Shown piece after piece: positions 24,098 to 30,375 of a DNA stretch of 64,000 nt. The stretch is from an uncultured Chlamydiae bacterium (GTDB lineage Bacteria; Chlamydiota; Chlamydiia; Chlamydiales; JAJFMA01). Under the pieces are notes generated by a model. That model was not told the DNA's origin, did not search any database, and worked only from the letters and a program-made list of their open reading frames with translations. Position 1 is the stretch's first letter. Each line of letters starts with the position of its first letter. The stretch covers positions 3,648,001-3,712,000 of the forward strand of contig CAVQMM010000001.1 of the NCBI GenBank assembly GCA_963713615.1, read 5' to 3'. A program made the position numbers and the translations under genes.

Positions 24098-26518
24098 ATG
24101 AATATGGATGCAATTCAGAGGAGCTTGGGTGTTTCGACATCTAACATGAAGCATTTTCAGGATTTTTCAAAGGGCTTTCCCCTATGTACATTAGATCAAA
24201 AAATAGAGACCCAAAAGCTAGCACTTAGCGGTAGCCAGCTAAAGGATGCCGTATCAAGCGCTATTACGTCTGGGCGAAAAGCCAGCCTTAAGTCTTGGGA
24301 GAAAGCAGAAATGAAGGTAGATCTGACCTACGACGGGAAACAAGGCGTATGCGCGACAGTTTCTAGAGGAAAGGTCGATTCGATTATCTCCGGACCGTGG
24401 ATTCGAGGAATTCCCGATGAGTTGAGACACGATCCTGTTGAGCTCAGATCCTTCCTGCAAGATACCTATATTAAGGTTTCACAATTTTCAGATACAAGCT
24501 ATGGACTGGAGGTTTGTCCTCGTTTAAAAGGTGGTGTGGGCTTAGATGACGAGCGTTTAGATGCGGAGACCTTAACGAAGTTGAGACAAGCTATTGATCA
24601 CGCTCAAAATGCTAGAGGCAAAGAGGTCATCGCCTTAATCGGAGATACAGGAACAGGAAAGAGTACTGCTATCAATTATCTACTGGGCAAAAGAATGGCA
24701 GCAACCGAGCGAGGGATGAGTACAGTCATCAACGTAGCAGCAGGCGAGCAAGAAGCCGCTAAAATTGGACATCAGCTACAACGCTCTGAAACCGATTTTA
24801 CGCATATCTATCCCGTTCCTAACAGCAGAAACGCACTTGCTGACTGTGGTGGCTTCCTCGACACAAGGGGAGTGTCAACAGAAATCGCTGTAAATATGTC
24901 GTTGAAATTAACCATGCAAAACGCCAGAAATGTAAAGCTTGTCTTGTGTTTGGCTTGCGATAAGTTGATTGGTGATAGATGTGTCGCATTCATGAGGACT
25001 TTAAGCACCGTCTTGGGGACTCTTTTAAGGGATTATCGTGCACATCAGGGTTCGATTATCTTAATGATTACTAAGCCAAGCAGATTGCAAAGTGGGCGCC
25101 TCGTCTCTGCTCAGGATGTAAAAGGACTTTTTGAAGAGATAAAAAACGAGTGTGCTCCAGGTTCCGAGAGGCGGGCTTGGATGGAATTTTTGCTCAGAAA
25201 TAATGGCAGATATATCTGTGTTTGCGATCCTATGTCTCCTGAGGGCAGAAACACGATCCTTCAGCTGTTTAACACAGCGCAAGCGATTGAGGAACCTAGC
25301 AAGGCATTTAAGACCGCTTACTCAGAAAATGCCAAACTTCGCCTTTTTGAGGAAATGAGCATCATTTCTACAATAGGCTCCGATTGCTATAGAAAGTTCT
25401 TTAGTATTGTAAAGCGATTAAACAATAATGATTCGGAAATTGCATCTTTAAATCAAAAAATTACAAAGATCACCAAAGATATTGGTCAATTAATGCATGA
25501 TTTTGGAAGTAAAGAGGACAATCTTGATTCGCTAAAAGCAACGGAAGCTAACATTAAAAAAGAACGTGAAAGAGCAATTGAACAGGAAAGGGATAAAATC
25601 ACAGATCTAAAAAATGAAATCAAAAAATTAAATTTAAAGTCTCAGGGACTAAAGGACCAATTAATTAAGCTTGCGCAAGAAGGTGAACAAGAATCCTGCT
25701 ACTGGACGGATGAGATCAACAAAGACGGAGTAAGTATTAAACATAGACAGACAGTTACCGTTACGCACACGGTTCAGAAGAGTGGTGGTTTTTTTGGGAA
25801 GGTTATAGGTGGGATAGTTGGAACTTTTGTGGGGGGGCCAATAGGTACAGCCGCGGGTACAGCTGTAGGGGGAATGATTGATGGTGATGACTCTACTACA
25901 GAAATATCCAAACCCCAGACAGTTATTAGCGACATTCCGCTTCCTATTGAACGTCATTTTAGCTACCAAGGCCCTCCAATTCTTCGAGTTGTAAAATTTC
26001 CTAACAGCCCCAAATACTGGAAAGATGAAAGATTGAATGAAACTAGCTATTCCGTTGATTACGCTACGGATCCTGGCGAAAAGGCTTCAGCCTCTGTAAG
26101 TGTGTACACACAAAAAAAGCACCAACCTGAAGAGATCGCCAAAAAGTTTGGATTGGAGCAAGAAATAACTAACACAGTGGTTGAAGTGACAAACTGTGCG
26201 AATCAACAAGGCCTATCTGAGAACTCTATCCTCCGAGAACAAAACGCGATCAATGTTAAGGGGAATCTAATGGAAAGGATAGAGGGCTATAAGAACACGC
26301 AAGCAGAGTATGAACACGCAAAGCAAGGCATCGAAGCCGAAAAACTTGTTACCGTGCAAGAAAAAGATGAGCTGAGAAATCGAATACAACAACGGAGCCC
26401 TGATTTTGTCTTTTTGAAAGATTATCTAGAATTAAGTCAAGATGAAGAATTAAAAAGTAATGAAATCGTTAAAAAATTCTTAGAACTCGATGAAAAATTT
26501 CACACATCTAATATATAA
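24098..26518 (+). CDS. Large coiled-coil P-loop GTPase with an N-terminal domain ending RLKGG and a glycine-zipper segment
   Basis: G1 GDTGTGKS, G2-like SET, G3 DCGG(FLDTRG), G4-like TKP, a long coiled coil and GGFFGKVIGGIVGTFVGGPIGTAAGTAVGG. Start 24098 or 24104 after AGGA; the track's extension runs through the MITE. Confidence 0.8.
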   Translation: MNMDAIQRSLGVSTSNMKHFQDFSKGFPLCTLDQKIETQKLALSGSQLKDAVSSAITSGRKASLKSWEKAEMKVDLTYDGKQGVCATVSRGKVDSIISGPWIRGIPDELRHDPVELRSFLQDTYIKVSQFSDTSYGLEVCPRLKGGVGLDDERLDAETLTKLRQAIDHAQNARGKEVIALIGDTGTGKSTAINYLLGKRMAATERGMSTVINVAAGEQEAAKIGHQLQRSETDFTHIYPVPNSRNALADCGGFLDTRGVSTEIAVNMSLKLTMQNARNVKLVLCLACDKLIGDRCVAFMRTLSTVLGTLLRDYRAHQGSIILMITKPSRLQSGRLVSAQDVKGLFEEIKNECAPGSERRAWMEFLLRNNGRYICVCDPMSPEGRNTILQLFNTAQAIEEPSKAFKTAYSENAKLRLFEEMSIISTIGSDCYRKFFSIVKRLNNNDSEIASLNQKITKITKDIGQLMHDFGSKEDNLDSLKATEANIKKERERAIEQERDKITDLKNEIKKLNLKSQGLKDQLIKLAQEGEQESCYWTDEINKDGVSIKHRQTVTVTHTVQKSGGFFGKVIGGIVGTFVGGPIGTAAGTAVGGMIDGDDSTTEISKPQTVISDIPLPIERHFSYQGPPILRVVKFPNSPKYWKDERLNETSYSVDYATDPGEKASASVSVYTQKKHQPEEIAKKFGLEQEITNTVVEVTNCANQQGLSENSILREQNAINVKGNLMERIEGYKNTQAEYEHAKQGIEAEKLVTVQEKDELRNRIQQRSPDFVFLKDYLELSQDEELKSNEIVKKFLELDEKFHTSNI

Positions 26519-26551
26519 TCATTAATTTTAAAAAACGAATGATCGATCAAT

Positions 26552-28684: not shown

Positions 28685-30375
28685 TGCACGTTACAATTAA
28701 TTCTATTATTTTGAAAGTGGCGGCAAGATGCAATATTAATTGTGATTATTGCTACGTATTTCAGCATGCGGATCAGAGTACCAAAAAGCAGCCTAGGTTA
28801 CTGAGCAAAGAGCATTTATTCGCTTTTGCCAGGCAGGTGGATGCCTATTTAGATCGTTATGCAATACCAGAAATGTCGATTTGTTTTCATGGTGGCGAAC
28901 CGCTTTTAGCTGGGCTTTCCTATTACGAAGATCTATTTGCAATCTTTCAACAGGGTATTCGACGGTATGACAATCTATCGCTAGCCATCCAGACCAATGG
29001 GATATTGCTGAACCGTAAGTTTCTCGATCTCTTCCGAGCAAACCGGGTTCAGGTAGCCTTGAGCCTCGATGGCCCAGCTTCGGCCAATGATAAGCATCGT
29101 TTAGACTACCGAGGGCGGTCCACCTATGAGAGCGTTTTTCAAGCCTTGGCTTTGTTACGCGGTGACTACCGCGATGTGTTTAGTGGAGTACTCAGTGTGA
29201 TCGATCCGACGAATACTCCAGAGGAGATTATTGATTTTTTTGCAGAAATAGATCCACCCTCTTACAACATGCTGCTCCCGGACGCTAACTACTGCAGGCC
29301 ACCTCCAGGACGGGAGAGAGACCCTGACCTATACATCAACTGGTTAAAAAGAGCCTTGATTCATTGGCATACTCATCAACGGCAGCTTCGTATTCGTACT
29401 TTTGTGGACCTATTTCAGGGTTTGATGGGCATAAGAACGGAGTCGGAATTTTTTGGTAATGGTGCAGTAAGTTATATCGTTGTTGAGACAGATGGGAGTT
29501 ATCACTGCTCCGATATTTTAAAGACTACGTATGCAGGTGCGTCCCATACCGGTCTGTTTGTGAAATCGGCTACAATCGATGATGTTGTTCAGTCTTCGGT
29601 TATCCAGGACTATTCTTCCATGCTGAAGGTGGACCAAAAGTGTGTTACTTGCCTGAAGTGCCCTGAGCTATCACTTTGCGGTGCTGGGCAGATTGCTCAT
29701 CGCTATAACGCTGAAGGTTTTGATAATCCCAGCATCTATTGTCGGGAAATATTAGCTCTCACACACCAGGCTAGACACCTTTTGCTTAAAAAACGCTTGG
29801 AAAAGGTGGCTTTTTTGCCAAATTTTAATGAAAAACAAATTGTTCAGGTTTTTCTTTCCGAAAATTCTTGTTACTTGTTGATGATCCTTGTCGCAAAAGA
29901 GATTCCGGTGGATGAGGTGCTGATGCATCCCAGCATTTCTGCCAAGTCTTACGAAGGTCAACAGGCGCTGTCGCTATTGAATAAAATGTTTCATCATTTT
30001 GAAACGGAGTACGGCCTCCTTTGCCAAGATTTACCTACGGCTGAGTCCCCGTCCAGCATGAAGTACGCTGAGACCATCCTAACGTTTTTTTTAACAAAAA
30101 AATTCGATCTTTTTGATAGCTGTTATGCCCTTACCTATTCTCAAGATCATGAGGAGCTGTTGCGCAGCTTGTATCGGTGTTGCTATACACTTCGGTTTTG
30201 GCAAAGTATGATGGCTCACGACGCCCATTCTGCATACCATCTGCAAATAACAGCGATACGAAGCGACATCGCCGAGTTGCTTAAATCGCTATCGACTAGT
30301 GATTTGTCTGAGATGGGACAAGAGCTTCTTGAGCAGCTTGTAGAAGAATTCGTTCCTAGTTTTCTTCGGCTTTGA
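28684..30375 (+). CDS. Radical SAM/SPASM maturase of the FxsB/YhhB (cyclophane-forming) type with a degenerate C-terminal HExxH-like domain
   Basis: ILKVAARCNINCDYCYVFQHADQS, FHGGEPLL, QTNG, SLDGP...NDKHR, VVETDG, SPASM CVTCLKC..CGAG..HRY...GFDNPSIYC. TAATG overlap with the upstream stop. Confidence 0.85.
   Translation: MHVTINSIILKVAARCNINCDYCYVFQHADQSTKKQPRLLSKEHLFAFARQVDAYLDRYAIPEMSICFHGGEPLLAGLSYYEDLFAIFQQGIRRYDNLSLAIQTNGILLNRKFLDLFRANRVQVALSLDGPASANDKHRLDYRGRSTYESVFQALALLRGDYRDVFSGVLSVIDPTNTPEEIIDFFAEIDPPSYNMLLPDANYCRPPPGRERDPDLYINWLKRALIHWHTHQRQLRIRTFVDLFQGLMGIRTESEFFGNGAVSYIVVETDGSYHCSDILKTTYAGASHTGLFVKSATIDDVVQSSVIQDYSSMLKVDQKCVTCLKCPELSLCGAGQIAHRYNAEGFDNPSIYCREILALTHQARHLLLKKRLEKVAFLPNFNEKQIVQVFLSENSCYLLMILVAKEIPVDEVLMHPSISAKSYEGQQALSLLNKMFHHFETEYGLLCQDLPTAESPSSMKYAETILTFFLTKKFDLFDSCYALTYSQDHEELLRSLYRCCYTLRFWQSMMAHDAHSAYHLQITAIRSDIAELLKSLSTSDLSEMGQELLEQLVEEFVPSFLRL

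What the first reader, a model, noticed from the sequence alone, without database searches (positions are those of the whole stretch)
24098..30375. Candidate new system: two GG-leader GTPase effectors coupled to a cyclophane-type radical SAM maturase with no peptide precursor
Seen in the sequence: three co-oriented AT-rich genes, with a 33-bp gap and then a TAATG overlap. Two are paralogous ~700-800-aa coiled-coil P-loop GTPases; the third is a radical SAM/SPASM enzyme. Established knowledge: its motifs (LKVAARCNINCDYCYVF.HADQS, VETDG, CGAG..HRY..GFDNPSIYC, C-terminal HExxH-type domain) are those of the FxsB/YhhB three-residue cyclophane-forming RiPP maturases. These normally sit beside a short precursor gene and crosslink aromatic-X-X motifs. 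I found no short precursor ORF in or beside the operon. Inference: the large GTPases may be the substrates, so RiPP chemistry would be applied to secreted proteins. The shared N-terminal domain could act as a leader ending in GG, and GTPase 2 has aromatic-rich motifs right after it (FSK, FSR, YYFSFSS). Alternatively this is a conflict or defence module.
Basis: partly seen in the sequence, partly recalled or inferred. Interest (0 to 1): 0.9.

Follow-up and report, generated by a model that had tools for sequence, protein, structure and literature searches.

The report
Peptide-stapling enzyme retargeted to GTPase protein
In a conserved three-gene operon of what are likely environmental chlamydiae, an enzyme from a family that staples small peptides into rings has no peptide partner gene of the known kind and likely staples instead a short aromatic-rich stretch near the front of a 710-residue GTPase, which would carry small-peptide chemistry onto a large, likely secreted protein.

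Summary
The operon is real: GTPase A (806 aa), GTPase B (710 aa), radical SAM enzyme R (563 aa). The same order recurs in three other loci. R passes the FxsB cut-off. It belongs to a 14-member clade sister to YhhB, keeps every Fe-S cysteine and has lost the HExxH metal ligands. No YhhA precursor was found in three genomes carrying the clade; two control genomes gave theirs.

The GG-ending N-terminal domain is a generic cassette (119 protein clusters), not an R-specific leader. Only B-type proteins carry an aromatic-x-polar repeat right after the GG: at least three triplets in 12 of 16 B-types and in all 8 paired with R. The three B genes from two R-less genomes have fewer. A has none.

A complex model of R with B(15-135) scored 0.67 against 0.01 for the best control. 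It placed B-specific leader residues on invariant residues of R's dead HExxH remnant.

Best reading (0.65): R binds B's leader and installs three-residue cyclophanes in B, and the leader is then cut at GG. The chemistry, the cleavage and secretion are untested.

The parts
24098..26518 (+). GTPase A (806 aa): GG-leader, P-loop GTPase, coiled coil with an inserted Gly-rich hydrophobic segment and small beta domain; partner gene with no aromatic core after its GG
24239..24535 (+). Generic leader domain of A (residues 48-146), ending RLKGG; modelled as a compact beta-rich fold (pLDDT 88.7) with no clear match among solved structures
25784..25885 (+). Gly-rich hydrophobic segment of A (residues 563-596), a possible membrane-contact tip (inference)
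26552..28684 (+). GTPase B (710 aa): GG-leader, aromatic core, poly-Pro, beta domain, coiled coil, GTPase, coiled coil; likely substrate of R
26552..26866 (+). Leader domain of B (residues 1-105), ending RGLGG; carries the B-specific residues I42, G44, F61 and F73, most of them in or next to the predicted contact with R
26867..26923 (+). Candidate core (residues 106-124): triplets FSK 109-111, FSR 116-118 and HEH 119-121 or HDR 121-123; low confidence (likely disordered) in the model; begins with a G-x-x-x-S motif
26924..26935 (+). Poly-proline spacer between core and beta domain, conserved in B orthologues
27626..28291 (+). P-loop GTPase domain of B (about residues 359-580); best fold matches are mitofusin, GIMAP and Toc34, at low TM-scores
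28684..30375 (+). R: FxsB-family radical SAM/SPASM enzyme (563 aa), sister clade to YhhB-HExxH fusions
28696..29790 (+). Radical SAM plus SPASM domains (residues 5-369); C16/C20/C23 and C320/C323/C326/C332/C353 are invariant in 14 of 14 clade members
29791..30372 (+). Shortened HExxH remnant without metal ligands; keeps invariant Y497, R504, Q507 and F556, of which R504, Q507 and F556 are predicted to touch B's leader

Best explanation
R, a YhhB-related radical SAM enzyme with no small precursor gene found, likely binds the N-terminal leader domain of GTPase B and likely installs two or three aromatic-to-C-beta three-residue cyclophane rings (at FSK, FSR and HEH/HDR) in the flexible stretch right after the GG, so that B would carry a stapled N-terminal tip once the leader is cut off. 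Shown: the operon, the clade, loss of the HExxH ligands, absence of a YhhA gene, the B-only aromatic repeat and its co-occurrence with R. Predicted: R's dead HExxH remnant and its SPASM domain grip B's leader and last strand. Inferred from family chemistry: cyclophane formation (-2 Da each, no beta-hydroxylation). Inferred by comparison: cutting after GG exposes a G-x-x-x-S end that a eukaryotic host could myristoylate, and A and B act together as a membrane-associated GTPase pair delivered into a host cell. The ring-bearing tip would be a rigid, protease-resistant binding element beside the lipid anchor.
For: R passes the FxsB cut-off, is monophyletic with 13 relatives (support 100) and is sister to YhhB-HExxH (97) (quick tree). 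All Fe-S cysteines are kept. A-B-R order is seen directly in 4 loci: window, L010, L059, L016. Four more B-R pairs share an identical longest-contig length and source, and R and B distances agree over the 8 pairs (Mantel rho 0.79, p 5e-5). NF041705 YhhA gave no real hit in G000, G122 or G318 (best E 0.18) and was recovered in 2 of 2 controls. At least three aromatic-x-polar triplets in the 18 residues after GG: 13 of 14 B-types against 1 of 97 others, that one a B fragment. The corrected recount is 12 of 16 B-types; background is 2.3% of 18-mers elsewhere in B proteins. All 8 R-paired B proteins have at least three; the three B genes in two genomes with no R hit have fewer. YhhA cores give 3-4 by the same rule, and P0128 carries the YhhA triplet YSR. 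Complex model: score 0.67, best control 0.01 (mark reached by 116 of 157 solved complexes and 2 of 215 mismatched pairs; runs share at least 27% of contacts; partner pLDDT at least 64). Its closest contacts join R504/Q507, invariant in 14 of 14, to B F73 (F, L or Y in 17 of 17 B-types; none of these among the five commonest residues in 97 other leaders). For a cut at GG: 26 leader-bearing proteins have an astacin-like motif 9-16 residues after GG, starting with G or A (5 of 5 tested hit Pfam Astacin); 20 of 111 have Met right after GG; a leaderless B begins MGVCLS.
Against: No modification, cleavage or secretion was measured. Four of 16 B-types (P0149, P0150, P0173, P0229) have only 1-2 triplets yet keep the B-type leader; their genomic context is unknown. 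Six of 14 clade enzymes have no B seen. The R-less G421 contigs end inside B, and G160 is 96% complete. The first triplet overlaps a G-x-x-x-S/T motif (13 of 17 B-types against 7 of 96 others), so part of the pattern may serve lipidation. The triplet rule was written, and the B proteins are kin, so the p-values overstate. The complex job had no A-leader control, and close cousins of true partners can pass. Core residues 109-124 were not among its confident contacts. The window's core does not hit the YhhA model, and R lacks three acidic residues conserved in YhhB, so the chemistry could differ.
Confidence: 0.65

Rival explanations
1. B is the substrate, but the stapled core is released as a small triceptide by a second cut near the poly-proline spacer, making B a polyprotein precursor of a peptide plus a GTPase.
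For: The core resembles YhhA cores in length and triplet count. It is low-confidence in the model and set off by a poly-Pro spacer.
Against: No conserved cleavage motif follows the core, only prolines. No protease or transporter gene is conserved next to the operon in the four loci seen. The G-x-x-x-S start suggests a lipid anchor for the whole protein.
Confidence: 0.1
2. R binds B's leader but does something other than cyclophane formation there (another radical reaction on His, Ser or Gln, or a chaperone-like role).
For: YhhB-conserved D255, D261 and D275 equivalents are changed across the clade. Position 3 of the triplets is mostly Ser, Gln or Thr rather than Arg. HxsA, with His-x-Ser repeats, receives a +8 Da change of unknown chemistry (PMC13128918, section 9).
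Against: All cluster ligands are kept. Family members cross-link Phe, Tyr, His or Trp to Ser, Asn, Asp, Ala, Arg or Lys (PMC11002830 passages; PMC11499958), and one active-site residue can switch position-3 preference.
Confidence: 0.12
3. R works on an unrecognised short peptide encoded elsewhere and merely travels with the GTPase pair; B's aromatic, Ser-rich start is a myristoylation signal plus a low-complexity linker.
For: 578 of 44,112 short ORFs in the genome meet a three-triplet rule by chance, so a novel precursor cannot be excluded. A 58-codon plus-strand ORF in the AT-rich stretch upstream of A has three triplets. A-B arrays exist without R.
Against: No YhhA was found. The one short ORF upstream of A in L059 had fewer than two triplets, and no shared short ORF was seen across loci. 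The core is reduced where R is missing. R and B co-diverge, and the complex model passes.
Confidence: 0.1
4. One reading: both GTPases are substrates through their shared GG leader, or the three genes form an anti-phage or conflict module.
For: Both carry the leader. The HXS system is a precedent for a radical-SAM-matured defence effector.
Against: A-type proteins have 0-1 aromatic residues in the 20 after GG and lack the B-specific leader residues. A in L059 has no leader at all. The leader marks astacin-like proteases, NACHT and TPR proteins, a set that looks host-directed (inference).
Confidence: 0.03

Closest known systems
YhhA/YhhB triceptide system (NF041705, NF041707; radical SAM-HExxH fusion)
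   Same: Sister clade of R; same radical SAM/SPASM scaffold; substrates with 3-4 aromatic-x-x triplets such as YSR and HNR. Canonical copies occur in other genomes of the same order (L012, L013).
   Different: No free 50-75 aa precursor. The candidate core sits inside a 710-aa GTPase behind a folded leader domain. The HExxH ligands are lost, R is below the YhhB cut-off, and position 3 of the triplets is mostly neutral.
ChlBH fused radical SAM/aKG-HExxH cyclophane synthase-hydroxylase
   Same: Same two-domain ancestry (PMC12636437 passages).
   Different: Here the HExxH half is shortened and lacks its metal ligands, and is predicted to bind the substrate's leader rather than hydroxylate.
HXS anti-phage system (HxsA/B/C/D; PMC13128918)
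   Same: Radical SAM maturation of a protein effector within His-x-Ser repeats, with N-terminal processing. One B core gives weak HxsA-model hits, E 0.01-0.05.
   Different: Different enzymes (R scores 64 against a cut-off of 370 on HxsB); one enzyme rather than two plus HxsD; +8 Da of unknown chemistry on a 214-aa periplasmic protein there, predicted cyclophanes on a 710-aa GTPase here.
SPASM enzymes with protein substrates: anaerobic sulfatase maturases, and QhpD of quinohemoprotein amine dehydrogenase (chemistry recalled, not read here)
   Same: Radical SAM/SPASM enzymes that modify a protein or enzyme subunit rather than a free peptide.
   Different: They form formylglycine or thioether links in housekeeping enzymes. 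R scores far below their cut-offs (140.5 against 349; 64 against 453).
Paired bacterial dynamin-like GTPases (LeoABC, IniA/IniC; recalled) and mitofusin/GIMAP-type GTPases
   Same: Adjacent paralogous GTPase-coiled-coil genes; best fold matches of B are mitofusin, GIMAP and Toc34.
   Different: No family cut-off is met and TM-scores are low. A and B have their domains in different order and carry a GG leader.

Membership tests
FxsB-family cyclophane-forming rSAM (TIGR04269) | score above the curated cut-off | tested here: met
   376.7 against 370 bits; relatives P0011 382.9 and P0003 385.3
FxsB-family cyclophane-forming rSAM (TIGR04269) | intact CxxxCxxC and SPASM cysteines | tested here: met
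   invariant in 14 of 14 clade members
FxsB-family cyclophane-forming rSAM (TIGR04269) | forms an aromatic-to-C-beta cross-link on a three-residue motif | not testable with these tools
   needs co-expression, MS/MS and NMR
YhhB equivalog (NF041707) | score above the curated cut-off | tested here: not met
   388.3 against 445; the control YhhB in L012 scores 497
YhhA/YhhB system | short YhhA precursor gene beside the enzyme | tested here: not met
   no real NF041705 hit in G000, G122 or G318; found in controls G054 and G303
aKG-HExxH beta-hydroxylase (TIGR04267) | HExxH motif plus distal His | tested here: not met
   ligands lost in 14 of 14; no TIGR04267 hit in G000, weak remnant hit E 0.002 in G122
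Triceptide precursor | repeated aromatic-x-x motifs in an accessible core behind a leader | tested here: met
   B residues 106-124, low pLDDT; sequence pattern only
Triceptide precursor | stand-alone short peptide | tested here: not met
   the core is embedded in a 710-aa ORF in all full-length orthologues
HXS system | HxsB plus HxsC enzymes, HxsD and an HxsA effector | tested here: not met
   R far below the HxsB cut-off; neither GTPase hits HxsA models
Ubiquitin-like (beta-grasp) leader | beta-grasp fold ending in LRGG | tested here: inconclusive
   ends in RL(K/R)GG; fold search best Z 5.1, rmsd 3.0, 83 aligned, to the SAS-6 head, within chance range
Dynamin-like GTPase | Dynamin_N profile above cut-off, membrane binding and oligomerisation | tested here: inconclusive
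   20.8 and 22.5 bits against 27; fold matches to mitofusin at low TM-score; activity untestable here
Secreted chlamydial effector | export into a host cell | not testable with these tools
   inferred only from the other proteins that carry the leader

The most novel reading that the evidence does not exclude
A triceptide pathway has been rewired into a protein-modification system. A cyclophane synthase turned its dead hydroxylase domain into a receptor for one variant of a widespread, undescribed cleavable chlamydial leader domain, and staples a hypervariable ring-bearing tip onto a secreted GTPase effector. That tip becomes the lipidated N-terminus after cutting at a ubiquitin-like GG end. 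This would be a case of cyclophane cross-links on a full-size host-directed effector, and a portable leader for stapling large proteins.
Probability: 0.45. Interest if true: 0.92.

Novelty: new variant of a known kind. Interest (0 to 1): 0.82.

Why it matters
Three-residue cyclophanes are described on small peptides in the papers read here. A natural enzyme-leader pair that staples a 700-residue protein would widen RiPP chemistry to full-size effectors of intracellular bacteria. It would also show how a pathway changes substrate (precursor lost, core gained in a neighbour, dead domain reused) and could give a portable tag for site-specific stapling of recombinant proteins. The generic GG leader on 119 protein clusters is itself a lead on how environmental chlamydiae process host-directed proteins. 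The central claim can be tested with one E. coli co-expression.

Tried and rejected
A free YhhA-type precursor: not found. A genome-wide short-ORF scan was uninformative, with 578 of 44,112 passing by chance.

The 80-codon ORF at 23859-24101, whose stop overlaps A's start: rejected, because it lies over a 160-bp genome-wide repeat.

YYFSFSS as core: rejected, it is a structural strand. The leader as R-specific: rejected. An active HExxH: rejected.

Ubiquitin fold for the leader: no ubiquitin-like chain among the top 50 rows, which does not exclude it. A polyubiquitin-like protein (P0214) appeared in the profile search; sequence searches of solved structures gave nothing significant for the leader and only weak P-loop and coiled-coil matches for B.

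Word-index searches found only one B relative. The ESM Atlas gave no hit for B's N-terminus and generic G-domain clusters for A.

The HtkB D214 position could not be mapped onto R; the supplement search returned only figure titles.

In one search the anchor was misplaced for P0132 and both G421 B proteins (script count 2 each; by eye 1 each for the G421 pair). In one search the anchor was misplaced for P0127, P0128 and P0149, without changing the count of 13 of 17.

Three look-ups of earlier scan findings returned nothing. Literature searches returned no paper; searches listed none describing this operon or leader by title or abstract start. PADLOC, expression data and a Foldseek search of the leader model were not run.
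Full report
Observation. The three ORFs are at the stated places: A 24098-26518 (806 aa), B 26552-28684 (710 aa) and R 28684-30375 (563 aa), with a 33-bp gap and a TAATG overlap. 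Their GC is 41.8-44.3% against 47.3% for the window. A and B share a P-loop GTPase domain (34% over 298 aa) and have no further paralogue in the 3.97-Mb genome. The closest named relatives of R are from Parachlamydia and Parachlamydiaceae, so an environmental chlamydia is inferred.

The enzyme. R passes the FxsB cut-off (376.7 against 370) and falls below YhhB (388.3 against 445). Of 3,060 hits, the best 120 were listed, and the top 14 (self included) are shortened proteins of 541-643 aa. In a quick tree of 73 rows (the careful search did not finish) these 14 form one clade (support 100), sister to YhhB-type HExxH fusions (97). All Fe-S cysteines are invariant in the 14. The HExxH histidines and the distal histidine, conserved in 99-100% of 105 YhhB-like proteins, are lost, and three acidic positions conserved in YhhB are changed. 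R therefore looks catalytically intact as a radical SAM enzyme but cannot be a hydroxylase.

The operon recurs. In a sample of 401 genomes of the phylum, 8 matched R at E below 1e-40. Three carry the clade (G000, G122, G318), two carry canonical YhhA-YhhB loci (G054, G303), and three have distant enzymes. A-B-R order was read directly in the window, L010, L059 and L016. Four more B-R pairs were inferred from identical longest-contig length and source: P0122-P0011, P0133-P0005, P0138-P0002 and P0146-P0014. Over these 8 pairs, R and B identities correlate (Mantel rho 0.79, p 5e-5), which shows co-inheritance, not substrate use. Six of the 14 enzymes have no B seen, and 10 of the 13 B-types looked up matched no enzyme.

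No free precursor. The YhhA model found its two positive controls and nothing real in G000, G122 or G318. Short-ORF scans cannot exclude a novel precursor (578 of 44,112 pass by chance). One 58-codon ORF upstream of A has three triplets, but nothing comparable is shared with the other loci.

The leader is generic. A profile of the N-terminal domain finds 119 protein clusters at 50% identity, among them astacin proteases, NACHT and TPR proteins (10 tested), and four further genes in this genome. It nearly always ends in GG. After GG comes Gly in 61 of 111, Met in 20 and Ala in 12. In 26 proteins an astacin-like motif follows at 9-16 residues from a G or A start, as expected (from recalled astacin biology) if cutting at GG frees the mature protease end. 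A leaderless B in G421 begins MGVCLS, and 13 of 17 B-types have G-x-x-x-S/T after GG against 7 of 96 others. Cutting at GG followed by myristoylation is thus a reasonable inference, not a result. The leader folds confidently (pLDDT 88.7) without a clear structural match (best Z 5.1).

The core is specific to B. After seeing five B sequences I noted an aromatic-rich stretch after GG. The later profile search supplied further B-types, classed by the downstream beta domain rather than by the core. With a rule written after that output (aromatic-x-polar, non-overlapping, 18 residues), 13 of 14 B-types had at least three triplets against 1 of 97 others; 8 of 119 rows were dropped for incomplete leaders. 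Three B-types had been binned among the others, and the corrected recount gave 12 of 16, with P0229 at 2 and P0149, P0150 and P0173 at 1. The background elsewhere in B proteins is 2.3%. YhhA cores score 3-4 by the same rule. All 8 R-paired B proteins pass. G160 and G421 have A-B arrays with no R hit, and their three B genes lack the leader and have fewer than three triplets; both assemblies are fragmented. A-type proteins carry 0-1 aromatic residues there. In the model of B, residues 100-126 have pLDDT below 50, consistent with an accessible substrate.

Predicted contact. R with B(15-135) scored 0.67 (runs 0.67, 0.66, 0.74) against 0.01 for the best of three controls. The mark was reached by 116 of 157 solved complexes and 2 of 215 mismatched pairs; the runs share at least 27% of contacts and partner pLDDT is at least 64. 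The model supports binding but does not show it, and no A-leader control was run. Its best contacts join R504 and Q507 of the HExxH remnant, invariant in 14 of 14, to B residues 42-44 and 72-73, and the SPASM region to B's last strand and GG linker. B positions 42, 44, 61 and 73 are conserved in B-type leaders and not in 97 other leaders. The alignments fed to the model carry the same conservation, so this agreement is not fully independent. The core residues 109-124 were not among the confident contacts.

Mechanism. The most likely course is that R binds B's leader in the bacterial cytoplasm and forms three-residue cyclophanes in the core. This is the chemistry reported for the family: aromatic-to-C-beta links on Phe, Tyr, His or Trp with Ser, Asn, Asp, Ala, Arg or Lys (PMC11002830, passages; PMC11499958, parts 1-2 of 3 of the text). 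The leader would then be removed at GG and B would act with A as a membrane-associated GTPase pair (best fold matches mitofusin, GIMAP and Toc34 at low TM-score). Confidence is 0.65 for cyclophanes on B that stay attached. The rivals are another reaction or a chaperone role (0.12), release of a peptide (0.10), a hidden precursor (0.10), and both GTPases as substrates or phage defence (0.03).

Comparison and novelty. It works like a YhhA/YhhB triceptide pathway but is not a member: no short precursor, YhhB cut-off missed, HExxH dead. The nearest precedent for a radical-SAM-matured protein effector is the HXS system (PMC13128918: abstract and sections 9 and 11 read), which uses other enzymes and a +8 Da change. 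The fused HExxH background is from PMC12636437 (passages). QhpD, sulfatase maturases and bacterial dynamin pairs are recalled, not read. Searches found no paper, and searches listed none on this operon; the library lacks most subscription papers, including the primary YhhB and ChlBH reports and their supplements. Verdict: a new variant of a known kind, interest 0.82.

Noticed in passing
window 23870-24030: A 160-bp repeat with internal inverted similarity sits just upstream of A. It has well over 100 related copies genome-wide in two subfamilies (about 99% and about 72% identical), including copies in the window near 44510-44670 and 50450-50615; it looks like a MITE.
   Followed up: partly
L118 3196-9281 (G000:C1:2101-2107 kb): Four tandem genes each carry the GG leader on unrelated coiled-coil bodies.
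   Followed up: partly
proteins P0123-P0239: An apparently undescribed ~90-aa leader domain ending in RLxGG on 119 clusters; 26 are astacin-like proteases whose mature end would start right after GG, and 20 have Met there, as if the cassette was added to whole genes.
   Followed up: partly
L010 3045-5216 (-), L117 9598-11259 (-), L141 3570-5711 (-): A third, helical-repeat gene ('C') accompanies the A-B pair in three genomes but is absent from the window's genome, suggesting a three-part effector set.
   Followed up: partly
L012 2089-6163 and L013 6442-11465 (-): Canonical YhhA-YhhB(HExxH) clusters with shared downstream accessory genes in two genomes of the same order; the enzyme in L013 is split by a frameshift.
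   Followed up: partly
P0173, P0229, P0149: Divergent B-types begin after GG with a basic amphipathic stretch resembling a membrane-binding helix, followed by a His-rich patch.
   Followed up: no
window 22760-22978 (-): A 72-codon ORF ending in a weak PEP-CTERM-like motif (E 0.003-0.008), possibly the end of a longer or broken gene.
   Followed up: no
window 31246-35529 (+): A 1,427-aa coiled-coil protein with C-terminal hydrophobic segments and no family above cut-off, behind an AT-rich upstream region.
   Followed up: no
L063 9708-9920, L064 9675-9941, L065 9645-9896, L066 9582-9959, L019 1859-2161: Short precursor-like ORFs with repeated Tyr/Trp-x-Lys-type motifs in front of more distant cyclophane-type radical SAM genes.
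   Followed up: no
G000 C1, several places (e.g. near 459074, 527093, 3560732, 3642828): Short ORFs with a recurring WT(N/D/E)WT reading, pointing to another short dispersed DNA repeat.
   Followed up: no
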